Assembly (NCBI GenBank): GCA_903884505.1
Contig: CAISET010000030.1
Span: 29,701-93,700 of the forward strand
Direction of reading: 5' to 3'
Source: an uncultured Candidatus Micrarchaeota archaeon
GTDB taxonomy: Archaea > Micrarchaeota > Micrarchaeia > Burarchaeales > Fermentimicrarchaeaceae
DNA length: 64,000 nucleotides
This document shows positions 1,670-26,459 of the stretch, piece by piece; position 1 is the stretch's first letter, and each line of letters opens with the position of its first letter. The notes under the pieces are model-generated. The model made no database searches and was not told the origin of the DNA. It worked only from the letters and a program-made list of their open reading frames with translations. Made by a program: the position numbers and the translations under genes.

Positions 1670-1991
1670 GGGACGGTGCGATCATCGCCGGCTAATACTC
1701 TGATTCGCAACTTTAAAAACAAGCCGGAAGCCGTGGAGGTTCAGGAACCAAGGATGTCCGACCGAGGAGCGAAGCGACGACCGAGGACACCATTGGTTCT
1801 GATGGGACGGTGCGATCATCGCCGGCTAATACTCTGATTCGCAACTTTAAAAACAAGCCGGAAGCCGTGGAGGTTCAGGAACCAAGGACGTCTGCGGGAG
1901 GAGCCCGCGACAAGCTTCGCCCCGTGGGGCGAAGGTGTCCCTTTGCGCTGAAGCGCAAAGAGGACGACCAAAGACACCATTGGTTCTGATG
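1670..1991 (+). repeat. Tandem duplication of an ~88-bp unit. Each unit carries a TTTAAAAA promoter-like box and is followed by a hairpin-module cassette closed by GAACCAAGG...CCATTGGTTC.
   Basis: Unit copies sit at ~1670-1758 and ~1804-1892 and are near identical. Cassette 1 is ~1745-1803 and cassette 2 is ~1878-1991. Cassette 2 contains the palindromes cttcgccccgtggggcgaag and ctttgcgctgaagcgcaaag. Both end with gacaccattggttctgatg. Confidence 0.7.
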
Positions 1992-9895: not shown

Positions 9896-9940
9896 GGCAT
9901 TCCTTTCGGCAGCCGGCTATTAATTGGTTTGGGGGTAGAG

Positions 9941-10060
9941 GGAACCAGCGATGTTGCCGAGCAGGGCGAGGCAACAGGCAGTCGCCAACGAAGTTGGCGA
10001 TGCGCAACGTGAGTTGCGTAGTTGTCGCCGAAGGCGACTTGAAGCCATCGGTTGGTTCCT
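9941..10060 (+). repeat. Hairpin-module MITE-like element (copy C), with GAGGGAACCAGCGATG...CATCGGTTGGTTCCTC inverted termini
   Basis: ~100 bp near-identical to the reverse complement of 20975-21072. Contains the hairpins gtcgccaacgaagttggcgat, gcgcaacgtgagttgcg and tcgccgaaggcga. Confidence 0.75.
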
Positions 10061-10546
10061 CTAAATTCTGTCCCCGAAGAAGTCGATTAACAGGTGAAGG
10101 AGGTAGCCAAGGGCGGCGAAAACGCCCACGAGCAGCGAATCATCTACTGAGAGATTGAGAAGAAGAAGGAAGGCGAAAACCAAAATTCCCCAGAGGAAGG
10201 CCGCTGACCACGAATGCATGACGCCGCGGTGGCCCGGGATGGAGAGTTCGGCAAGGGCGAGCAGCAGGAAGGGAAGGAAGAGCGCAAGGAGCGGGGAGAT
10301 TGCCGAGAATGTGGAGTAGAAGAGGACTACAATCAGGATTCCGAGCAAAAACACGGCAAGCCGGAAAGCCCTCCTGGGTTTTGATTTCCTGCTGTCTATG
10401 TCAGGCAGGAGCGAGCTGATGATGAAGACGAGCGAGGCAACGGCAGCGGTGGGGACTGGAAAGCCATGCATCTCGGCGATGAACGCGGATATGAATACTG
10501 CGCCAAGTATTCCGCCGATGAAATGCTCCCGAAACCCGGTCTCCAC
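10061..10546 (-). CDS. Membrane-bound metal-dependent hydrolase-like protein (DUF457/YdjM family)
   Basis: 161 aa polytopic, with conserved His/Asp 'LLPDIDS' and 'HLLIDFFGD'. Confidence 0.5.
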   Translation of the reverse strand: METGFREHFIGGILGAVFISAFIAEMHGFPVPTAAVASLVFIISSLLPDIDSRKSKPRRAFRLAVFLLGILIVVLFYSTFSAISPLLALFLPFLLLALAELSIPGHRGVMHSWSAAFLWGILVFAFLLLLNLSVDDSLLVGVFAALGYLLHLLIDFFGDRI

Positions 10547-14362: not shown

Positions 14363-14600
14363 AGAAACCCCCGATGCGCAGGTTTGAGTCGCCTTCGGCG
14401 ACAGCTGCGCAACTTCTGTTGCGCATCGCTCTTCGTTGCCAACGCGATTTGCGCTCGTTGCGCAACAAGCATCGCCCTTTGGGGCGATGATGCCCCCTTG
14501 TGCTTTCGCACAAGGAGGGATGCGTCGCTGTTCGCCCGCTGGCGAACATGCGAACGAACTCGCTCGCCGCGCATATCGTCGGTTTCTACGTTACTTCCGG
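14363..14600. mobile_element. Hairpin-module MITE-like element (copy D) flanked by an 18-bp direct repeat that duplicates the AMMECR1 gene 3' end
   Basis: Direct repeat TYAGAGYTTCTTCTCAAC at 14343-14360 and 14601-14618. Start of D matches the reverse complement of the 3' part of copy C (agtcgccttcggcgaca...gcgcaact...gttgcgcatcgc). Confidence 0.7.
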
Positions 14601-15200: not shown

Positions 15201-15388
15201 GCTTAGGATGAAGTGCAGCCTGCTAAATAAACATTAGCTCGCATTTTACTCAACTACAAGACAATAGATTTAAATATATTTCGGCACAAAACGATTCCGC
15301 TGGTTCTTCGTCTTTTGAGGTGGTTGCACCACCTCAGCTGTGCGGGAACTGTGAAAAGACTGGTTCTGTAAATTCTGAGGTGGTGTGG

Positions 15389-18300
15389 ATGTCGACTTCC
15401 GTGAACTCCGCGAAGTGGTTCCTGCTGGCAGCGCTGCTGCTGGCAGGCATGGCATGCGCAGCGGGCAATTCGGACATACCCGAAAGCTACAACAGGTTCT
15501 GGGAAGGCCCGAACACGGGATTATTTCCATGCATAACCAACCTCCCGCTTCTCAACCTCGAGAAAACCGATGTGATGGATGCGCCGGCAATTGCACGGCT
15601 TGAACTTCCAGCGGGCTTCTCGGCGGTGAGGGAAAAGATGCAGAACGCAAGCGAAAAAATCAAGGCGGCCAAGGAAGGCTCCGTGCGTTTTCTCGGCATA
15701 TCGTTCTTAATCTTCGAGGTCGGAGAGAAAGTCCGCCTTTATGCAGATGGAAATCCCTACCCGATGTTGGCGAGCACGACATTTTGCGGGATGTCGGAAG
15801 AATCAGCGGATATATGGATAATAACCGAACCAGCCATGTACTGGAAGTGCCATGAGCTTTGGCAGGCGAACGAACAGGCCTGCAAGGCAATGGGCGATTC
15901 CCTTGACGCGCTGCAGGCGGCGGCATACGCCTCAAACGATGCGCGGGATGCAGCCGCTTCGCACCTTGAAACCCTCGGGAGGATGGGCGCCGATTACGGG
16001 AACTACTCCGGCTCCGCGAGAGGCGTTTATTCCGATTCAAAGGAAGCCCTGGAGGCTGACCCAATCATCGCTTTTAACGGCTCGCGGGAGATAACGCTGA
16101 GATACGATGACCAGGCGCCTAGGTTCGCTGCCGCATACGTTTCCGCATACGATGTGAAGACGGCATTCGAGAACGGCTCTGCCCAGTTCGAACGGCCGGA
16201 TTCCTACGCCGCGGCGATAGACCTTATGGCGGGGAGGGACGAGAACCTGGTGACCGGCTGGGCCGCAGTCTACTGGAACATCGATTCCGCAATCTCCGGC
16301 ATGGAAAGCGAATGGAACGGCAGTGAACGGGCGGCGGATGCGGAATATAGCGACGCGGATTCGGCCGTGGCCGCACTGGAGGAAGACGGTTACTCCAAGA
16401 TTACCGCAGACCTCATCTCGAATTTCAGCGAGGCAGCCACGGGCCCAATCCACGGCTCATTCAACGCGGCGCCTCCTGATGAGCGGGTGGCGAACGCAAG
16501 GGCGATGCTGCAGGGCGCAAATGCGAACATAACGGAAGCGCGCCGCCTTTCAAATGCGGAGTACGAAGAGGATTACCTCGCGCGGGCGATTGAAACTAGC
16601 CAGCGGGCGCACAGCTCCATCACGTCCGCGAAAAGCATGGCTGAGGAGGCGAAGGCGGAGGTTGAGGAGATAATCTCGGCAGCAGACGGGCTCTATGGCC
16701 TGAAGAGCAGCGAGGTGAGGAGCGCAATCGATTCCTTCAGCACAGAAACTCCCGGAAGCGCGAGGCTGAAGGCGAATGCCGAAACGGACTACCGAGAAGC
16801 GGTTGGGCTCGCGGCTACAGCGAGAGCCGGAACTTCCGGAAAGCACCTTGCCGGCCTTGCAGCTGCGCTTGGGAAGCTCGAATCCGCAAAGCTCTGGCTC
16901 AGCGATGAGAACGTGAGCATCGCAATCAGAAGGGATGCGGCCCGCGATGAACTGGCGAGGCTGAATGCAACGCTGAACAAGGCGGAGCATGACGGGATTG
17001 GCGTCACCTCCGAGCGGGACTGGCTCAACAATGCCATGCAGGGGCGTGACTCCGGGACTGCAGAAGATATGGAAAACTTCAAGGAGAAGGCGGAGCTGGC
17101 TGAGGAGGAGGTTTATGCGAAGGCAGCTGCGCAGTTCGGCTATCTTGACTGGCAGGTCTCCGCGCTTGACTCGACAATCTCCGCAATCCGCAGCTACCGC
17201 TCCATCCTGGGGAGCGCTGCCGAGCTCGAGGCGAAGTTCCGCGAATTCGACGAGCTGAAGAGGAATTACGCGAGTGGGGGGACGCTGGTTCCCGAGAAGG
17301 CGCTTGGCCATTATCTAGAGATAGCGGACAAGCTTGATGCGATTTCGCAGGAAGTGGAAAGCAACAAGGCGAAGATGATCCAGGAAATGATGGAGAAGAG
17401 CGCCAGATATGATGTGGCCTGGGAGGGCGAGCCAATCCTCGATGAAGAGATGTCGGCGCTGGTCTCGGTAAGGCTCGCGAACGAGCTTCCGTTCGGCACA
17501 AACAGCTCGCTCAGCGTTTCCATTCCCGGAGATTTCCCATCGGGCCTTTCCGTGGTCTCAAAAGATGCGGCAATCTTCTCCGTTGATGCGACCGGCACGA
17601 AGATTACGGCCTACTTTACCTCGGTTTCCGCAGGCAGCGCATATTCCATTTCGCTGAAGGGAAGCGGCGCGGAGCCGGCACGCAGCGTCGGAAGGCAGCA
17701 GGGGAACATAACCTCCCTCCACGAGCAGGAGCTTGTTGGCAGCGAAACGCTGGAGTTCGAGGCCCTGCGGGACCTTGACCGCCTGGCAATTCCTATGGAA
17801 ATCCCGGAAGGCACGGGCAGGCTTTCCGCGGAGATGGAGAACGGCAGGGTTGCGGAAGTGGTGAATTCCGATGGAATGGCACTTGTCTCCGCCGAAAGGG
17901 TGCGCAAGGGAAGAGGTAGCGTCACACTGGCATACCACATCCCGAACCCCTACTTAGTAACCGAGGGCGATGCGGAAGTGCGGAAAATAGACAACCTGAC
18001 CGCACGCATCACCTACAATGTTACGGTATCTTCGCGCGCCATGGACCTTTCGGACGTTCCAGTCCTCATATTCGTCCAGAACGTGAGCGGCGAGGAAGGC
18101 GTTTCCGTCCGCGGGCTGGATGGCGCATCGCTGCGTAACTTCGAGCAGCAGCCTTCGCAGGGAGGCGTGTCAGTCTCCTGGAGCATCAGGAGTCTTGGCA
18201 AGGGGGAGAGCGCAACCTACGAAGTCTCTTACGCGATAAGCGACCCCGGCGAATATGCCGAGTGGTTTTATTCGCAGGATGCTTTGCTCATCAATTCGCT

Positions 18301-19612
18301 TGATGAGGCCGGTCTCATTCCCGAGGCGCGCTTGGATGCTTTGAAGGGAAAGCTCGCGGACGCCCGCGGCCTGCTCGACAGCCAGAAATGTATGGAGGCG
18401 ATAGCGGAACTGAAGGGGCTCAGTGCGGACGCGCAGAAAGCAGCCAAAGACTCGCAAATTCAGGAGACTGCGAGGGCAGGTTACTACGATGAATTGGCGC
18501 AGTTTAAGAAGGAGAAGGCGGCGCTCGGGAATCTGCACGATGGGCTCTTCTCCGCGGGCTTGGACAGCGAGGCACGCAAAGTACAAACTGCGCTCGATGC
18601 TGCGGGCGAATCCGAGGATGAGGCGGCAGGGCTTGCGGACGATTTGAATTTTGGCTCCGCAAAGGCGAAAATTTCCGACGCGCGCAAGTCGCTCCATGTC
18701 GACCTTTCGGGCCCGCTCAACAACAGGGTGGAGTCGCTTTCCAAGGAGGCTGACCTGCTGAATAAGCGGGGCCATGCCCTTTCGCTCCTGGACAATGAGG
18801 CAAACCTCAGCGATTTCCAGGTGGAACTCGCGGGAATCCGCTCGTCCATCTCCGATGCGGACTATTCTTCGGCAGCAACCGGCATCGCGGGACTGAACCG
18901 CTCGCTTTCGGCAAAGGAAGGCGAAACGGACGCGGGCTTCGGCCGGCTTGTCCCGGAGTTCGAAGGCTATGCGCGCGAAGTCTCCGAATTGAAGATAGTA
19001 TTCGGGGCGAACTTGGTGGAATTCTCAAAATCTTCGAAAAACGAGACCATCCTGGGGCAGGCGAGAAACGATTTGGCCGAGCTCGGCAGGCTCGATTCCC
19101 TGCTCTCAAACTTCTCGAGCTCCCCGGAGAAGCCGAAGTTCCTAGAGGCGAACGCAGAGAAGCTCGCAGGGATAAGCGCGGAGATCGCCACGCTGAACGG
19201 CACGAGCGCCAGCCTCGCCCAGGCAACGCAGGCCTACGCCAAGCTCGCGAACAGCTCCTTCTCGGAGGCCAGCCTGAAGCTCGAGCAGGCGCGGAAAATA
19301 GTCCCTGCAAGCGGGCAATACGCGGATAGGCTGCAGAACCTCACCTCAATCCTCAGCGATGCCGAGTCCGCACTCACTGCAAACAATTACGCGGATGCGG
19401 CAGTCCTTTCGGAGAAGGTAAGGGCGGGGGCGGAGCTGCTGCTTTCCGCAGCCTCGCAGGTCGAGCAGAAGGAGGCGGGCGCCGGCTTTTCGTTCCAGCC
19501 GGTCTATCTCCTTCTTCCGCTCCTCTTCTTCCTCGCGCTCGGCTACGTCTTCCTGAAGAAGAGGCCCGAGAAACCGCAAGAGGCCAAGCCAATCCAGCGC
19601 CTAGAATTCTAA
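15389..19612 (+). CDS. Giant alpha-helical, coiled-coil-rich surface protein with signal peptide and C-terminal TM anchor
   Basis: Probable start 'MSTSVNSAKWFLLAALLLAGMACAAG'. C-terminus 'FSFQPVYLLLPLLFFLALGYVFLKKRPEK'. AT-rich TATA region upstream contains the palindrome gaggtggttgcaccacctcag. Confidence 0.65.
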   Translation: MSTSVNSAKWFLLAALLLAGMACAAGNSDIPESYNRFWEGPNTGLFPCITNLPLLNLEKTDVMDAPAIARLELPAGFSAVREKMQNASEKIKAAKEGSVRFLGISFLIFEVGEKVRLYADGNPYPMLASTTFCGMSEESADIWIITEPAMYWKCHELWQANEQACKAMGDSLDALQAAAYASNDARDAAASHLETLGRMGADYGNYSGSARGVYSDSKEALEADPIIAFNGSREITLRYDDQAPRFAAAYVSAYDVKTAFENGSAQFERPDSYAAAIDLMAGRDENLVTGWAAVYWNIDSAISGMESEWNGSERAADAEYSDADSAVAALEEDGYSKITADLISNFSEAATGPIHGSFNAAPPDERVANARAMLQGANANITEARRLSNAEYEEDYLARAIETSQRAHSSITSAKSMAEEAKAEVEEIISAADGLYGLKSSEVRSAIDSFSTETPGSARLKANAETDYREAVGLAATARAGTSGKHLAGLAAALGKLESAKLWLSDENVSIAIRRDAARDELARLNATLNKAEHDGIGVTSERDWLNNAMQGRDSGTAEDMENFKEKAELAEEEVYAKAAAQFGYLDWQVSALDSTISAIRSYRSILGSAAELEAKFREFDELKRNYASGGTLVPEKALGHYLEIADKLDAISQEVESNKAKMIQEMMEKSARYDVAWEGEPILDEEMSALVSVRLANELPFGTNSSLSVSIPGDFPSGLSVVSKDAAIFSVDATGTKITAYFTSVSAGSAYSISLKGSGAEPARSVGRQQGNITSLHEQELVGSETLEFEALRDLDRLAIPMEIPEGTGRLSAEMENGRVAEVVNSDGMALVSAERVRKGRGSVTLAYHIPNPYLVTEGDAEVRKIDNLTARITYNVTVSSRAMDLSDVPVLIFVQNVSGEEGVSVRGLDGASLRNFEQQPSQGGVSVSWSIRSLGKGESATYEVSYAISDPGEYAEWFYSQDALLINSLDEAGLIPEARLDALKGKLADARGLLDSQKCMEAIAELKGLSADAQKAAKDSQIQETARAGYYDELAQFKKEKAALGNLHDGLFSAGLDSEARKVQTALDAAGESEDEAAGLADDLNFGSAKAKISDARKSLHVDLSGPLNNRVESLSKEADLLNKRGHALSLLDNEANLSDFQVELAGIRSSISDADYSSAATGIAGLNRSLSAKEGETDAGFGRLVPEFEGYAREVSELKIVFGANLVEFSKSSKNETILGQARNDLAELGRLDSLLSNFSSSPEKPKFLEANAEKLAGISAEIATLNGTSASLAQATQAYAKLANSSFSEASLKLEQARKIVPASGQYADRLQNLTSILSDAESALTANNYADAAVLSEKVRAGAELLLSAASQVEQKEAGAGFSFQPVYLLLPLLFFLALGYVFLKKRPEKPQEAKPIQRLEF

Positions 19613-19662
19613 CAAGAGCATTCGCATCCCGCAAAGAATTCGCGGGCAGCGCATTCGCGAGC

Positions 19663-19832
19663 TCAGCAGGAAAACTCGCATAACCTTTCTTTGGTGTCGC
19701 CCTTCGGGACGAATTCGCCTTCGGGCGAAATGTCCGCGTCCGAGACGCGGACGCTCCTCGCCATCCAGCAGGGGCTCGTCGCTCGACATCCTAAGAAACG
19801 TTAACGAAAGAATTCAGCAGGAAAACTCGCAT
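19663..19832. mobile_element. Small hairpin-rich element (G) flanked by the 19-bp direct repeat TCAGCAGGAAAACTCGCAT, which duplicates the 3' end of the Cas4-like gene
   Basis: Direct repeats at 19663-19681 and 19814-19832; both encode 'CEFSC*' on the minus strand. Internal hairpins tcgccttcgggcga and gtccgcgtccgagacgcggac. Confidence 0.55.
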
Positions 19833-20494
19833 CCTTCCCTGAATTCACAGACAAGGCATTTCGCAGGCTCCCCGCACGCGAGCTCCCTCCGCTCGAATCT
19901 TCCCTCAAGTATTCCCGCAAACCTTTCAAGCCTGGAAGCCACAAACCCCGCGTCGAACGGCTTGGGCTCTCCTTTTCCAAGTGGATGCCTTCCCAGCAAA
20001 TCCCGCTCGATTATCCGGTAGTAGATATCGAAGCCGCGCAGGACTCCCTCCCCGAGTTCCCTTCCCCTCACCCTCATAATCCCGTTCGCCAGCCCGTTGC
20101 AGTAAGCGGACAGCTGGCATTCGTATTTCCCCGAGAACAGCCCGCCAGCCCTCGATGTGAATTTCTCATCGCAGACAACAACCGACCTTCCGAATTTCAG
20201 CAGCTTGTCGAGCCTTCCGGAGAAGGTGAGGCCGCCAAACGCAAATCTCACGCTCACCGCCTCATTCGGGAACTCGAGCGCGCTTCCCTCGTCCTGCAGC
20301 CGGCGCAGCAGTTCATCAACGCTGACAGCCTCGTATTCCTTCTCCGCATCCTCCTCCGCGGAGATGGCATGCTGCCTAGTGCCAATTGCCACGCAGGGGC
20401 GGAAGTGCGGCCTCCTTTCCTCAAGAAAATGATAGACGGGCTTGAGGCCGCAGAACTCCACGTCCGCGAATTTGGAGATAGGGACGGCTCTCAT
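19814..20494 (-). CDS. Cas4-like / RecB-family PD-(D/E)xK nuclease with Fe-S Cys cluster (DUF83-like), standalone
   Basis: N-terminal Cys ('FCGLKP'), 'GRLDKLL', 'VVVCDEKF', QxxxY motif ('QLSAY'), C-terminal 'CGEPAKCLVCEFREGC'. Confidence 0.65.
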   Translation of the reverse strand: MRAVPISKFADVEFCGLKPVYHFLEERRPHFRPCVAIGTRQHAISAEEDAEKEYEAVSVDELLRRLQDEGSALEFPNEAVSVRFAFGGLTFSGRLDKLLKFGRSVVVCDEKFTSRAGGLFSGKYECQLSAYCNGLANGIMRVRGRELGEGVLRGFDIYYRIIERDLLGRHPLGKGEPKPFDAGFVASRLERFAGILEGRFERRELACGEPAKCLVCEFREGCEFSC

Positions 20495-20497
20495 AGC

Positions 20498-20623
20498 CTA
20501 TCCGACCTTCAGCTCAAGCCGCGCCCCATTCCGCTGTATGACGGCTCCGGTGCTCACCCTTTCCAGCCTCGCAATCAGCTCCTCCAGCTGGTCGAACGTC
20601 AATTCGGTCACATCCATTTTCAT
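20498..20623 (-). CDS. Small 41-aa protein immediately upstream of the Cas4-like nuclease
   Basis: 'MKMDVTELTFDQLEELIARLERVSTGAVIQRNGARLELKVG'. RBS gaggtgagggca precedes the ATG. The longer ORF call runs through repeat element E and is unlikely. Confidence 0.4.
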   Translation of the reverse strand: MKMDVTELTFDQLEELIARLERVSTGAVIQRNGARLELKVG

Positions 20624-20627
20624 TGCC

Positions 20628-20780
20628 CTCACCTCGGAACCCCGGTTGGCGCTGCGCTCGCTTGCGCGACCACGCAACACCTTCGGTGTTGCGCAAACGC
20701 ACCTTCGCTTGCGCCATATCCAGTCGCCTCCGGCGACTGCCTGTTGCGCGTTGCGCAACATCCTCGGTTCCTGAACCTCC
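20628..20780. repeat. Hairpin-module MITE-like element (copy E)
   Basis: GGAACCCCGGTTGG...CCTCGGTTCC termini. Modules gcgcaacaccttcggtgttgcgc and gtcgcctccggcgac. Ends ggttcctgaacctcc, as copy F does. Confidence 0.7.
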
Positions 20781-20829
20781 GTGAGCTGGTGCTGGACTGC
20801 TTTTAAAGAAGGGGAAGCGCACGTGGTTT

Positions 20830-21080
20830 CCAGTAAGAACCAATGGTTGGCATCCTCGCTGGCGCTCGTTGCCATATCCGGTCGCCTCCGGCGATTGATT
20901 TCGCCTTGCGGCGAAAGCTGTCGCTTTGCCGCGGGCAAAGCGCCATTGAGTCGCCTTCCGGCGACAGCTCAAATCGCCTGCGGCGATAACTGCGCAACTC
21001 ACGTTGCGCATCGCCAACTTCGTTGGCGACTGCCCGTTGCCTCGCGCTGCTCGGCAACATCCTTGGTTCCTTAACCTCCA
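20830..21080. repeat. Hairpin-module MITE-like element (copy F, longest; about seven tandem hairpin modules)
   Basis: GAACCAATGGTTGG...CCTTGGTTCCTTAACCTCC termini. 20975-21072 is the reverse complement of copy C. Modules gtcgccttccggcgac, gctttgccgcgggcaaagc, tgcgcaactcacgttgcgca and tcgccaacttcgttggcga. Confidence 0.75.
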
Positions 21081-21087
21081 CGCAAAA

Positions 21088-21597
21088 TCAGGGCTCTGCG
21101 CTGAACTCGTCCGCCTCGGTCAAATCAACGACTTCCCCAGCGCTCTGCAAGCCTTTCCCAACATAGACGAGCGAGGATGAGAACACGATGCGGTAAACGC
21201 CGTTGAACTCCTCAATCTCGCTCTTCATCATCCTCAAATATTTGTGTAGGGTCTGCGGGGAAATCTTAGTCTCCTTCTGTATCTCGTTGAAGGTCTTGGC
21301 GCGGGACTTGAGGCAGTTCCTCACCATCTGCTTCATGTCCTCGTCAGAAACAATATACTCCTCGGTCGCGAACTGCAGCTTCTCCTGCACGGACTCTATC
21401 CTCTTCGTTATCTCGTCCCTGCTCAGCACATCGCAACTTTTCAGCTCGCGCAGCTCCCTGAGGATGTGGTGCGCGCTCTCCCTCTGCGCGCCATCGAGCC
21501 GCTTAACATGCGCGGAAAGCTCCTCCAGCTTCCCGGAGACGCCGTCATTCCCGTTATTTTCCTTTCTCGCGCCGAACAGAATGTCCAATAAACCCAT
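21088..21597 (-). CDS. Hypothetical protein with C-terminal winged-helix-like region
   Basis: 169 aa; 'KTFNEIQKETKISPQTLHKYLRMMK' HTH-like segment. Confidence 0.4.
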   Translation of the reverse strand: MGLLDILFGARKENNGNDGVSGKLEELSAHVKRLDGAQRESAHHILRELRELKSCDVLSRDEITKRIESVQEKLQFATEEYIVSDEDMKQMVRNCLKSRAKTFNEIQKETKISPQTLHKYLRMMKSEIEEFNGVYRIVFSSSLVYVGKGLQSAGEVVDLTEADEFSAEP

Positions 21598-21861
21598 AAT
21601 AAAGTCGCCTAGGGCGCATATTAGATGCCGAAAATATTTAAAGAGTGCGGTAATTCGGTTTCGCAGCCTGTCAGCCGGCGGCTTCCCCGAAGCCCCTTCG
21701 CAAAAAGCAGGCGCTCGCTTCCGCTATTCGTCCGAAGTGGCGCCATCTCACTTTAAAAAGGGTTCAAACAAAACCACTGTCCCCAAAACATCAAGTATCT
21801 GCGCCTGGTCCGCGCGGACGCCGGAAAATTCTTGGGGAAAAGGGAAGCAATCGGAGGGGTG

Positions 21862-22077
21862 ATGGCGATGTTCGAGTTGCCGATTCTAGAAGTTGAGAGG
21901 TTCATCAGGAATGCAGGGGCGCAGCGCGTCACGGAGGCCGCTGGGAAGAAGCTCACGAGGCTGCTTGAATGCCGCGCAGAGAAGATAATAGAGAATGCGG
22001 CGATGATTTCGAGGTATGCCGGCAGGAAGACAATTACAAGGGAAGACATCATCCTCGCGCTTGAATTCGAGAATTAG
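21862..22077 (+). CDS. Archaeal histone (HMf family). The 3' end lies in a 25-bp direct repeat.
   Basis: 'MAMFELPILEVERFIRNAGAQRVTEAAGKKLTRLLE...AGRKTITREDIILA'. GGAGG RBS. Ends with an atypical 'LEFEN*'. Confidence 0.85.
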   Translation: MAMFELPILEVERFIRNAGAQRVTEAAGKKLTRLLECRAEKIIENAAMISRYAGRKTITREDIILALEFEN

Positions 22078-23479: not shown

Positions 23480-23686
23480 TTAGTCTGCCAGCCGGATATC
23501 TTCTTCCGTTACTGTCTTTCTCCCGGCGTGTTTCGCCAGTTTCGCGGCCTTTGCCGCGATGCGGCCCGCCTGCTCCTCAAGAACGTCGCGGAGAGCCGAG
23601 GCTGCCTGCGGAGAGACGCGCGTCGCGCCGGATTTCCTGATGAGCCGCTCGACGGCGGCTATCGGAAGTTCTGCCATAAGAAGCAC
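23480..23686 (-). CDS. Archaeal histone (HMf family), second copy
   Basis: 'MLLMAELPIAAVERLIRKSGATRVSPQAASALRDVLEE...AGRKTVTEEDIRLAD'. Confidence 0.85.
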   Translation of the reverse strand: MLLMAELPIAAVERLIRKSGATRVSPQAASALRDVLEEQAGRIAAKAAKLAKHAGRKTVTEEDIRLAD

Positions 23687-26319: not shown

Positions 26320-26459
26320 CGCGAGGTTTATAAATTCCCACTTCCCCAATACAGTCCTGCTCATTTTACTGTCGTAGATGAGCTTGATGAACCCCCAACG
26401 GGGGATTCGCAACATGCGAGCATGTTGCGGGTTTGCACGGGGGGCGAGGGTGATTTCAA
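26320..26459 (+). promoter_or_regulatory. Promoter (TTTATAAATT) plus structured 5' leader of the L7Ae operon, with a tandem GATGA...GATGA (C-box/K-turn-like) motif and palindromes
   Basis: TATA at 26327-26336. gtaGATGAgcttGATGAacc at 26374-26393. Hairpins cccccaacggggg and gcaacatgcgagcatgttgc. Confidence 0.4.

What the first reader, a model, noticed from the sequence alone, without database searches (positions are those of the whole stretch)
19814..21597. Solo Cas4-like Fe-S nuclease with a 41-aa upstream partner and a wHTH protein, embedded in a cluster of hairpin repeats
The 226-aa protein has the full RecB/Cas4 motif set (hhhD, D/ExK, QxxxY, 1+3 Cys). No cas1/cas2 and no CRISPR array are present in the window. 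A 41-aa ORF with a strong RBS sits 3 bp upstream on the same strand. A wHTH protein lies beyond two hairpin elements (E and F). The nuclease 3' end carries hairpin element G. The arrangement resembles a small defence or toxin-antitoxin-like module in a recombination-prone island.
Basis: partly seen in the sequence, partly recalled or inferred. Interest (0 to 1): 0.55.

Follow-up and report, generated by a model that had tools for sequence, protein, structure and literature searches.

The report
Micrarchaeal solo Cas4-like nuclease with microprotein partner
A small uncultivated archaeon (Micrarchaeota) carries a two-gene operon, a 41-residue microprotein followed by a stand-alone Cas4/Exo5-type iron-sulfur DNA nuclease, and the two genes stay together in ten of the eleven related lineages found; the neighbouring regulator-like gene and the hairpin repeats are bystanders.

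Summary
Window 19814-20494 (-) encodes a 226-aa PD-(D/E)XK nuclease with the full RecB/Cas4 motif set and 1+3 cysteines. Its AlphaFold2 model (pLDDT 90.6) best matches human EXO5, Cas4, the AdnA nuclease domain and SSO0001. The 41-aa ORF (20498-20623, -) is a real gene. It lies upstream of the nuclease in 10 independent lineages (nuclease identity 42-100%), has dN/dS of 0.10-0.20 and a GAGGTGA ribosome-binding site, and is absent only from a 38%-identical relative.

Both families are tiny (about 10-12 clusters among 5.8 billion proteins), confined to Candidatus Micrarchaeota, and never fused. A conserved upstream motif (ACTGGAAAnYAC, then TTTAAA) marks the pair's own promoter.

The HTH gene is not linked, because its homologues elsewhere lack the cassette. 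The hairpins belong to MITE-like elements scattered through intergenic DNA. The region is ordinary chromosome, with no island signature and no defence-family hits.

Best reading: a co-translated microprotein-nuclease pair that processes DNA ends, with the microprotein acting as a partner or modulator. This is inferred, not shown. A toxin-antitoxin reading remains possible but is less likely. This is a modestly novel variant of the known DPANN solo-Cas4.

The parts
19814..20494 (-). Solo Cas4/Exo5-like [4Fe-4S]-type PD-(D/E)XK nuclease, 226 aa. Motifs: C15; E78; D96 (GRLDKL); D109-E110-K111; Q127xxxY131; C213x2C216x5C222.
   Evidence: ORF. Pfam PF12705 26.9 bits. Invariant motif columns. AF2 pLDDT 90.6. 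Foldseek hits to EXO5, Cas4, AdnA and SSO0001 at E 1.5e-6 to 1e-4 and to viral DUF83/Cas4-like proteins. Profile match to the EXO5 Fe-S C-terminus, E 1.2e-3.
20498..20623 (-). Conserved 41-aa microprotein gene (MKMDVTELTFDQLEELIARLERVSTGAVIQRNGARLELKVG). Its stop codon lies 3 nt before the nuclease ATG.
   Evidence: Orthologues lie directly upstream of the nuclease in 10 distinct lineages. dN/dS is 0.10-0.20. M1, K2, D4, E14, R35, L36, E37 and L38 are invariant. A profile search finds only 12 clusters, all 40-69 aa and none fused.
20629..20635 (-). Shine-Dalgarno-like GAGGTGA, 5 nt upstream of the microprotein ATG.
   Evidence: Read from the sequence. GAGGTG or GGGGTG is present at the same position in L006, L008, L002, L009 and L019.
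20801..20807 (-). TATA-like box TTTAAAA of the operon promoter.
   Evidence: A TTTAA(A/T) box lies 12-15 nt downstream of the conserved motif in all loci.
20823..20834 (-). Conserved upstream cis-element ACTGGAAACCAC (consensus (T/A)ACTGGAAAnYAC), a putative operator or activator site.
   Evidence: It occurs exactly once per locus, always upstream of the cassette, in 10 fetched loci, plus window, L005 and L008 and the variant AGTGGAAAGCAC in L016. The motif together with a downstream TTWAA box occurs only once in the 64-kb window; the 8-mer ACTGGAAA alone occurs 3 times.
20636..20780 (-). MITE-like hairpin-array element, copy A, inserted in the operon's 5' UTR. It is an insertion and not a functional part of the module.
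   Evidence: The corresponding TATA-to-ATG interval is about 45 nt in L006 and L008. Terminal inverted repeat GGAACCGAGG...GGGGTTCC. RNA fold z = -4.0. Related copies exist elsewhere in the window.
20836..21079 (-). MITE-like hairpin-array element, copy B, between the wHTH stop codon and the operon promoter. It is an insertion and not part of the module.
   Evidence: 92% identical over 102 nt to the copy at 9941-10042. Terminal inverted repeat TAAGGAACCAAGG / CCATTGGTTCTTA. RNA fold z = -5.3. The orthologous gap in L004 is 78 nt.
19663..19832 (.). 19-nt perfect direct repeat (TCAGCAGGAAAACTCGCAT) flanking a 132-nt hairpin-bearing insert at the nuclease 3' end. This is a local rearrangement.
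   Evidence: Repeat D14 and blastn. In L004, L003, L002 and L016 the nuclease and the convergent giant gene overlap by 4 nt instead.
21088..21597 (-). Neighbouring 169-aa probable HTH protein. It is a syntenic neighbour and not part of the module.
   Evidence: Sub-threshold HTH_24, HTH_10, Mga, HTH_5 and HTH_11 hits all map to residues 96-128. Orthologues lie next to the cassette only in L004 and L006. Homologues in L020-L023 have no cassette.

Best explanation
This is a self-contained, chromosomally encoded two-gene operon of a sub-lineage of Candidatus Micrarchaeota. It comprises a promoter (a conserved ACTGGAAAnYAC element plus a TATA box), a 40-41-aa microprotein gene with a strong ribosome-binding site, and immediately downstream a stand-alone Cas4/Exo5-type iron-sulfur PD-(D/E)XK nuclease.

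Shown:
- The nuclease has an intact catalytic motif set and 1+3 cysteines, and it adopts the Cas4/EXO5 fold.
- The microprotein is under purifying selection.
- The two genes are co-inherited as a unit and evolve at similar rates.
- In several lineages they are only 3-8 nt apart, and in window, L003 and L004 the nuclease lacks an obvious ribosome-binding site of its own. This suggests termination-reinitiation coupling.

Inferred:
- The nuclease is a 5'-end-dependent ssDNA exo/endonuclease, like Cas4, EXO5 and AdnA.
- It works in DNA-end processing (repair or recombination, or clearance of foreign linear DNA) in an organism without CRISPR-Cas.
- The microprotein is made in step with it and binds it as a small partner subunit that restrains, activates or targets it. 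Other Cas4-family nucleases likewise depend on partners (Cas1-Cas2, pAgo, AddA/AdnB).

The adjacent HTH gene and the hairpin (MITE-like) elements are not components.
For: - Motifs and fold.
- Pairing in 10 of the 11 distinct lineages with upstream DNA.
- dN/dS is 0.10-0.20 for the microprotein and 0.06-0.10 for the nuclease.
- Pairwise identities of the two proteins correlate at r = 0.83 over 45 pairs, with mean identity 50.5% versus 53%.
- The ribosome-binding site and the short intergenic gaps.
- The conserved promoter element occurs once per locus.
- Both families are tiny and restricted to the same clade. The nuclease has 10 clusters among 5.8 billion proteins and 28 hits among 1.84 billion representatives; the microprotein has 12 clusters and no fusions.
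- The organism is Micrarchaeota.
- Neighbours are housekeeping genes and GC is uniform.
- Published background: solo-Cas4 is typical of DPANN archaea including Micrarchaeota, is mostly vertically inherited, has dN/dS of 0.06-0.18, and its function is unknown, with repair or defence suggested (PMC5704561).
Against: - No direct evidence of a physical interaction. The only co-fold attempt (a fused single sequence) failed with pLDDT 32.9.
- The microprotein has no detectable homology to any Pfam, NCBIfam, PADLOC or PDB entry.
- The 38%-identical relative L005 has the promoter element but no microprotein, so the nuclease can exist without it.
- The flanking context of the cassette varies: wHTH/giant gene, NosD/Big_1, an MBL-fold gene, an HVO_A0114-family gene. 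It is also absent between wHTH and the giant gene in L020/L021. This is the behaviour of an accessory cassette, not a core repair gene.
- The family is rare even within Micrarchaeota, with only 2 loci found among the GTDB species representatives using strict peptide patterns.
Confidence: 0.5

Rival explanations
1. Toxin-antitoxin-like or abortive-defence module. The nuclease is a DNA-degrading toxin held inactive by the labile 41-aa antitoxin encoded upstream. Stress or infection releases the nuclease.
For: - The architecture is typical of type II TA systems: a small upstream gene, tight or overlapping spacing, and a nuclease downstream.
- The cassette is a self-contained unit found in several different genomic contexts.
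- It shows presence/absence polymorphism at the wHTH/giant-gene junction.
- Its distribution is narrow and patchy.
Against: - No PADLOC hit and no known toxin or antitoxin family match.
- The microprotein has no recognisable DNA-binding domain and is too short to hold both a DNA-binding and a neutralising domain.
- There is a single copy per locus, no mobile-element or defence genes nearby, housekeeping neighbours and uniform GC.
- Selection on both genes resembles that on ordinary cellular genes.
- The L005 relative keeps the nuclease without any 'antitoxin'.
Confidence: 0.17
2. The microprotein is a miniature DNA-binding autoregulator, for example a ribbon-helix-helix-like dimer. It would bind the conserved ACTGGAAAnYAC element and control nuclease expression without touching the nuclease itself.
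For: - A conserved operator-like element lies upstream of every cassette.
- The N-terminal pattern (a short strand-like MKMDVxxL followed by an amphipathic helix) loosely recalls RHH proteins. This rests on my own recollection and was not tested.
- Invariant Arg and Lys residues: K2, R35.
Against: - No RHH or other DNA-binding family was hit for any of the 14 members, even at E <= 10.
- The second half is predicted, at low confidence, to be a beta-hairpin and not a helix.
- L005 keeps the promoter element although it lacks the microprotein.
Confidence: 0.13
3. The small ORF acts only as a translated leader (upstream ORF) that sets the translation rate of the nuclease by coupling. Its peptide would have no function of its own.
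For: The gap is 3-8 nt and the nuclease has no own ribosome-binding site in window, L003 and L004, while the small ORF has a strong one.
Against: - Amino-acid-level conservation: dN/dS 0.10-0.20, constant length of 40-41 aa, and 8 invariant residues across lineages whose synonymous sites are saturated.
- In L006, L008 and L019 the gap is 41-110 nt, so coupling is not universal, yet the peptide is still conserved.
Confidence: 0.08
4. The nuclease serves the surrounding hairpin (MITE-like) elements, for example as their mobilising or processing enzyme.
For: Three hairpin-bearing insertions lie within 1.5 kb of the gene.
Against: - Orthologous cassettes such as L004 have no such elements.
- The elements occur in many other intergenic regions of the window far from the nuclease.
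- A Cas4-fold exonuclease is not a known transposase type.
Confidence: 0.03

Closest known systems
Solo-Cas4 of DPANN archaea (Cas4 family sensu Hudaiberdiev et al. 2017, PMC5704561; structural examples SSO0001 4ic1 and Pcal_0546 4r5q)
   Same: - A stand-alone nuclease of about 200-230 aa with RecB motifs and 1+3 Cys.
- Encoded outside any CRISPR-cas locus in a small-genome archaeon lacking CRISPR.
- Purifying selection in the same range.
- Fold match.
   Different: - It does not reach Pfam PF01930/DUF83 (no hit at E <= 1) and matches only PF12705.
- It forms a tiny, divergent clade, with 28 hits among 1.84 billion representatives.
- It is preceded by a dedicated, conserved 40-41-aa microprotein and a conserved promoter element. 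The papers I read do not describe either for solo-Cas4.
Exonuclease V (EXO5; human 7lw7-7lwa), Pfam PF09810
   Same: - Best structural match (E 1.5e-6, TM 0.62).
- The only significant PDB sequence-profile match, over the Fe-S C-terminal segment with aligned CxxCx5C.
- A single-subunit Fe-S 5' ssDNA exonuclease.
   Different: - The PF09810 score is far below its cutoff (9.3 versus 25 bits).
- EXO5 is about 120 residues longer, eukaryotic or mitochondrial, and has no microprotein partner.
- The rmsd is high (about 8 A).
CRISPR-associated Cas4 in Cas4-Cas1-Cas2 complexes (7mi4, 8d3l)
   Same: Same fold, with the best rmsd values (4.2-4.5 A, TM 0.53-0.60). Activity depends on partner proteins.
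   Different: No cas1/cas2 genes or CRISPR array nearby. The partner here is a 41-aa peptide unrelated to Cas proteins.
Type II toxin-antitoxin operons
   Same: A small upstream gene tightly coupled to a downstream nuclease gene, forming an autonomous two-gene cassette.
   Different: - No homology to any known toxin or antitoxin family.
- No DNA-binding domain in the small protein.
- Chromosomal housekeeping context.
- One relative has the nuclease alone.
MITEs (miniature inverted-repeat transposable elements), for the hairpin clusters only
   Same: Short (70-245 nt), non-coding, multi-copy, intergenic, bounded by imperfect terminal inverted repeats, and present at different sites in close relatives.
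   Different: The interior is a variable array of 1-9 short GC-rich hairpins. No clear target-site duplication was found, and no cognate transposase was identified in the window.

Membership tests
Cas4 family (COG1468 / Pfam PF01930) | RecB-type PD-(D/E)XK motifs (E, D, D/ExK, QxxxY) | tested here: met
   E78, D96, K111, Q127 and Y131 are invariant in 21 sequences. D109 is invariant among the close homologues and is E in some distant ones.
Cas4 family (COG1468 / Pfam PF01930) | Four cysteines (one N-terminal plus C-terminal Cx2Cx5C) for an Fe-S cluster | tested here: met
   C15 is invariant and C213, C216 and C222 are nearly invariant. The three C-terminal cysteines align with the EXO5 cluster cysteines. 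Actual cluster binding cannot be tested here.
Cas4 family (COG1468 / Pfam PF01930) | Significant match to the PF01930 (DUF83) or PF06023 (Csa1) model | tested here: not met
   At E <= 1 only PF12705 (26.9 bits) and a sub-threshold Exo5 hit are reported. More distant relatives P0017, P0021 and P0024 do reach PF01930, so the link to that family is transitive only.
Cas4 family (COG1468 / Pfam PF01930) | Cas4 three-dimensional fold | tested here: met
   Foldseek hits 7mi4, 8d3l and 4ic1 at E 1.6e-5 to 3e-4 (4r5q weaker, E 1.4e-2); TM 0.53-0.60 for the Cas4-Cas1-Cas2 entries and 0.35-0.50 for SSO0001/Pcal_0546. Viral DUF83 proteins also match.
CRISPR-associated Cas4 (CAS-Cas4) | Adjacency to cas1/cas2 and a CRISPR array | tested here: not met
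   No array in the window. No cas domains in the 20 ORFs scanned or in the neighbourhoods of homologues. Not every small ORF of the window was scanned.
Pfam PF12705 PDDEXK_1 | Score above the gathering threshold | tested here: met
   26.9 bits against a cutoff of 22. PF12705 is also precomputed for 9 of the 10 homologue clusters.
Exonuclease V (Pfam PF09810) | Score above the gathering threshold, full-length match | tested here: not met
   9.3 bits against a cutoff of 25, covering only the last 16 residues. The structural similarity is nevertheless the top hit.
Type II toxin-antitoxin system | Small upstream gene tightly linked to the toxin gene, conserved as a pair | tested here: met
   The pair is present in 10 lineages, with gaps of 3-110 nt.
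Type II toxin-antitoxin system | Antitoxin with a recognisable DNA-binding or neutralising domain; toxin of a known toxin family | tested here: not met
   No Pfam, NCBIfam, PADLOC or PDB family for the microprotein. No PADLOC hit for the nuclease.
Type II toxin-antitoxin system | Toxicity of the toxin alone and rescue by the antitoxin | not testable with these tools
   Requires expression experiments.
Winged-HTH regulator (neighbouring 169-aa protein) | Significant match to an HTH/wHTH model or fold | tested here: inconclusive
   HTH_24 scores 16.8 bits against 21.9, and HTH_10, Mga, HTH_5, HTH_11 and HTH_7 are all below cutoff but map to the same residues 96-128. Homologue P0054 carries PF13412.
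MITE (hairpin elements) | Terminal inverted repeats, small size, multiple non-coding copies, variable insertion sites | tested here: met
   Copies lie at 1733-1803, 1867-1991, 9938-10062, 20636-20780 and 20836-21079, with terminal inverted repeats. An element head lies at a different site and orientation in L008. The element is absent at the orthologous site in L004.
MITE (hairpin elements) | Target-site duplication and a cognate transposase | tested here: inconclusive
   No consistent target-site duplication is recognisable. No transposase was found among the ORFs scanned.

The most novel reading that the evidence does not exclude
The 40-41-aa microprotein is an obligate, physically bound subunit of a solo Cas4/Exo5-type nuclease, acting as an inhibitor (antitoxin-like) or an activator/targeting factor. 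It would be the first dedicated partner described for a 'solo' Cas4. That would give an experimental handle on what solo-Cas4 nucleases do in CRISPR-less DPANN archaea, together with a conserved operator that places the pair under a specific, possibly damage- or infection-responsive, regulator.
Probability: 0.35. Interest if true: 0.5.

Novelty: new variant of a known kind. Interest (0 to 1): 0.35.

Why it matters
Solo-Cas4 genes are nearly universal in DPANN archaea and common in other small-genome microbes, yet their function is unknown. Repair, defence and anti-defence have all been proposed (PMC5704561). A strictly co-inherited microprotein partner and a conserved promoter element are concrete, testable clues. 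Co-purification, nuclease assays with and without the peptide, and identifying the factor that binds the operator could show how one such nuclease is controlled. The case also shows that conserved ORFs of about 40 codons, which gene callers often miss (it went uncalled in L002), can be integral parts of nuclease systems. The scope is limited: the family is confined to one uncultivated lineage.

Tried and rejected
- Co-fold hack. I submitted the window's in-frame read-through (microprotein-X-A-nuclease) as one chain. 
- Read-through or fusion idea. The two ORFs share a frame in the window (TAG GCT ATG) but not in any of the six other lineages checked. No fused homologue exists. The N-terminal extensions of distant homologues show no similarity to the microprotein. 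Rejected.
- Homology of the microprotein. Pfam on the single sequence and on all 14 members at E <= 10, NCBIfam, PADLOC and a PDB profile search found nothing consistent. PHROGs gave one marginal hit to a family of unknown function (phrog_8557, E 9e-4).
- The broad alignment A4 was too divergent for the metagenome scan. The scan was rerun with A5.
- Rfam and tRNA scans of the window found nothing.
- Compositional island: none.
- Nuclease as a MITE enzyme: rejected, because orthologous loci lack the elements.
- wHTH as the cassette's regulator: not supported by gene linkage. Whether it binds the operator could not be tested.
Full report
**1. What is at the coordinates**

The window is a 56.9% GC stretch of archaeal chromosome. 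On the minus strand, 19814-20494 encodes a 226-aa protein. Three nucleotides upstream of it, 20498-20623 encodes a 41-aa ORF (MKMDVTELTFDQLEELIARLERVSTGAVIQRNGARLELKVG). This ORF is preceded by GAGGTGA, 5 nt before its ATG. Further upstream, beyond a 464-nt intergenic region, 21088-21597 encodes a 169-aa protein.

**2. The nuclease**

- Pfam gives only PDDEXK_1 (PF12705, 26.9 bits against a cutoff of 22). PF01930 (Cas_Cas4) is not reported, and Exo5 is far below its cutoff. NCBIfam, PADLOC and PHROGs give nothing.
- In an alignment with close and distant homologues, C15, G38, H42, E78, G93, D96, K111, Q127 and Y131 are invariant, and C213, C216 and C222 are nearly so. This is the RecB/Cas4 motif set plus the 1+3 cysteine pattern Cx2Cx5C.
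- An AlphaFold2 model built on 10 sequences is confident (pLDDT 90.6, pTM 0.89).
- Its best PDB matches are human EXO5 (E 1.5e-6, TM 0.62), Cas4 within Cas4-Cas1-Cas2 complexes (TM 0.53-0.60, rmsd 4.2-4.5 A), the AdnA nuclease domain, Cas4 SSO0001 and MGME1.
- In the viral library it matches DUF83/Cas4-like proteins of archaeal rudiviruses and lipothrixviruses.
- A sequence profile finds only the Fe-S C-terminal segment of EXO5 in the PDB (E 1.2e-3), with the three cysteines aligned.

It is therefore a Cas4/Exo5-superfamily Fe-S nuclease. It belongs to PF12705 by the curated score, and is 'Cas4-like' by motifs and fold, but it is not a PF01930 member by score.

**3. Rarity and organism**

- A search of 5.8 billion protein clusters finds only 10 clusters, at 49-100% identity.
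- An exhaustive HMM search of 1.84 billion representatives finds 28 proteins at E <= 1e-3 and 12 at E <= 1e-10. The distant ones are PF12705, PF01930 or Exo5-like.
- The two matches among GTDB species representatives are both Candidatus Micrarchaeota / Micrarchaeia.
- Published work reports that most DPANN archaea, Micrarchaeota included, carry solo-Cas4 without CRISPR-Cas. It is mostly vertically inherited, has dN/dS of 0.06-0.18, and is of unknown function (PMC5704561).

**4. The small ORF is a real, co-inherited gene**

I recovered upstream DNA for homologous loci from several assemblies.

- A 40-41-aa orthologue sits directly upstream of the nuclease in ten distinct lineages. These are the window, L006/L010, L008, L004/L001, L003, L002/L018, L009/L013/L014, L012, L015/L016 and L019. 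Nuclease identity across them runs from 42% to 100%.
- An HMM of the peptide finds exactly one copy per nuclease locus and none elsewhere in about 170 kb of fetched DNA.
- M1, K2, D4, E14, R35, L36, E37 and L38 are invariant.
- Where synonymous sites are not saturated, dN/dS is 0.10-0.20 for the peptide and 0.06-0.10 for the nuclease.
- Pairwise identities of the two proteins correlate at r = 0.83 over 45 (non-independent) pairs, with similar means of 50.5% and 53%.
- A profile search of the big protein collection finds 12 clusters, all 40-69 aa, with no fusion to anything.
- The gap to the nuclease start is 3 nt (window), 4 nt (L003, L004), about 8 nt (L002, L009), 41-43 nt (L006, L008) and about 110 nt (L019).
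- Where the gap is 3-4 nt, the nuclease has no evident ribosome-binding site of its own, which suggests translational coupling.
- The only relative without the peptide is the most distant one, L005 at 38% identity. There the nuclease follows a CorA-like gene after 80 nt.

**5. A conserved promoter element**

All cassettes, L005 included, carry (T/A)ACTGGAAAnYAC followed 12-15 nt later by TTTAA(A/T), about 40-50 nt before the first start codon. The pattern occurs exactly once in each of 10 loci, and nowhere else in them. In the 64-kb window the motif with its downstream TTWAA box occurs only at 20802-20833, although the bare 8-mer ACTGGAAA occurs three times. This indicates specific regulation of the operon. 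The binding factor is unknown.

**6. What is not part of the module**

The HTH gene:
- Its orthologues sit next to the cassette only in the window, L004 and L006.
- Its homologues in L020/L021 are followed directly by the convergent giant gene, with no cassette between them. L022 and L023 also lack the cassette.
- Cassettes in L002, L009/L013, L012, L008 and L005 have other neighbours: Big_1/NosD surface proteins, an MBL-fold hydrolase, an HVO_A0114-family gene and CorA.
- Its HTH is supported only by convergent sub-threshold hits at residues 96-128, plus PF13412 on one homologue.

The hairpins:
- The 464-nt gap holds two elements, 20636-20780 and 20836-21079, one on each side of the promoter.
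- Each is bounded by imperfect terminal inverted repeats (GGAGGTTMAGGAACCRAGGATG ... CCAwyGGTTCY) and filled with short GC-rich hairpins.
- Related copies lie at 1733-1803, 1867-1991 and 9938-10062. Hairpin arrays lie at 14384-14550, 19695-19754 and 26408-26429. All are intergenic.
- They fold far better than shuffled controls, with z from -4 to -6.5.
- In L004 the same gap is 78 nt, and in L006 and L008 the 5' UTR is about 45 nt. The elements are therefore lineage-specific insertions of MITE type. An element head occurs at another site and orientation in L008.

The 3' end:
- A 19-nt perfect duplication of the last nuclease codons flanks a 132-nt hairpin-bearing insert.
- In L004, L003, L002 and L016 the nuclease and the giant convergent gene overlap by 4 nt instead.

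**7. Context**

- Neighbours are two histones, ketol-acid reductoisomerase, ribosomal protein L7Ae, an M20 peptidase, a hydrogenase subunit, a P-type ATPase, an exosortase-like protein, and CARDB/PKD surface proteins.
- GC is flat.
- There is no CRISPR-like array and no Rfam or tRNA hit.
- This is ordinary chromosome, not an island.

**8. Mechanism**

Shown: an intact Cas4/EXO5-type catalytic and Fe-S apparatus, a selected microprotein, co-inheritance, close coupling, and a dedicated promoter element.

Inferred from the biochemistry of Cas4, EXO5 and AdnA: 5'-end-dependent ssDNA exo/endonuclease activity used for DNA-end processing.

Inferred from gene linkage and coupling: the microprotein is produced with the nuclease and binds it as a modulating subunit. 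I put this at about 0.5.

The toxin-antitoxin reading (about 0.17) fits the architecture and the cassette-like presence/absence. It lacks any family-level support, and L005 keeps the nuclease alone. An autoregulator role (about 0.13) and a pure leader-ORF role (about 0.08) are weaker.

**9. Verdict**

The nuclease is a divergent member of the known DPANN solo-Cas4/PF12705 kind. The conserved microprotein partner and the operator are the new elements, so I rate it a new variant of a known kind, with modest interest (0.35).

Noticed in passing
window 1733-1803, 1867-1991, 9938-10062 (+); 20636-20780, 20836-21079 (-); hairpin arrays 14384-14550, 19695-19754, 26408-26429: A family of MITE-like elements. 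Imperfect terminal inverted repeats (GGAGGTTMAGGAACCRAGGATG ... CCATTGGTTCT) enclose a variable number (1-9) of short GC-rich hairpins that share a stem vocabulary (GTCGCC, GCGCAAC, TCGCCAAC). RNA folds have z from -4 to -6.5. There is no Rfam match and no transposase was identified. A head copy is also present in the close relative L008 (1-30), in the opposite orientation.
   Followed up: partly
window 1705-1720, 1839-1854, 9915-9925, 20801-20807: Four of the five complete elements begin about 20-28 nt downstream of a TATA-like box (CTTTAAAA or CTATTAAT). Either they insert preferentially at transcription starts or 5' UTRs, or they are transcribed as small structured RNAs. Window 1680-1754 and 1814-1888 are a tandem duplication of promoter plus element head, with 50 nt perfectly identical.
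   Followed up: no
window 19613-19832: A 19-nt perfect direct repeat (TCAGCAGGAAAACTCGCAT), equal to the last codons plus the stop of the nuclease, lies 151 nt apart. A scrambled 26-nt remnant (19639-19664) is 73% similar to the part of the gene coding ELACGEPAK (19860-19885). This is a footprint of an insertion or rearrangement between the nuclease and the convergent giant gene.
   Followed up: partly
window 15320-19612 (+): A 1430-aa protein with an N-terminal signal or transmembrane segment, long coiled-coil-like regions and a C-terminal membrane anchor. It has no Pfam family. Homologues of about 1140-1460 aa lie convergent to the nuclease, or to the HTH gene, in many Micrarchaeota loci (L003, L004, L013, L016, L020, L021). 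It is probably a lineage-specific surface protein.
   Followed up: no
window 21832-22077 (+) and 23480-23686 (-): Two archaeal histone genes (CBFD_NFYB_HMF) flank a 457-aa protein of unknown function that has a weak DIT1_PvcA similarity. The histone-HTH arrangement is conserved in L004 and L020/L021.
   Followed up: no
L005 6585-6615: In the 38%-identical relative without the microprotein, the sequence ATGAAAATG, identical to the first three codons (MKM) of the microprotein genes, lies 8 nt upstream of and out of frame with the nuclease's GTG start. It could be a relic of a lost small ORF or a coincidence.
   Followed up: no
L002 5870-5995: The 41-aa microprotein gene was not called by the source assembly's gene caller in this locus, and it was over-extended to 58-69 aa in others (L001, L006, L009). 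Its distribution is therefore under-reported in protein databases.
   Followed up: yes
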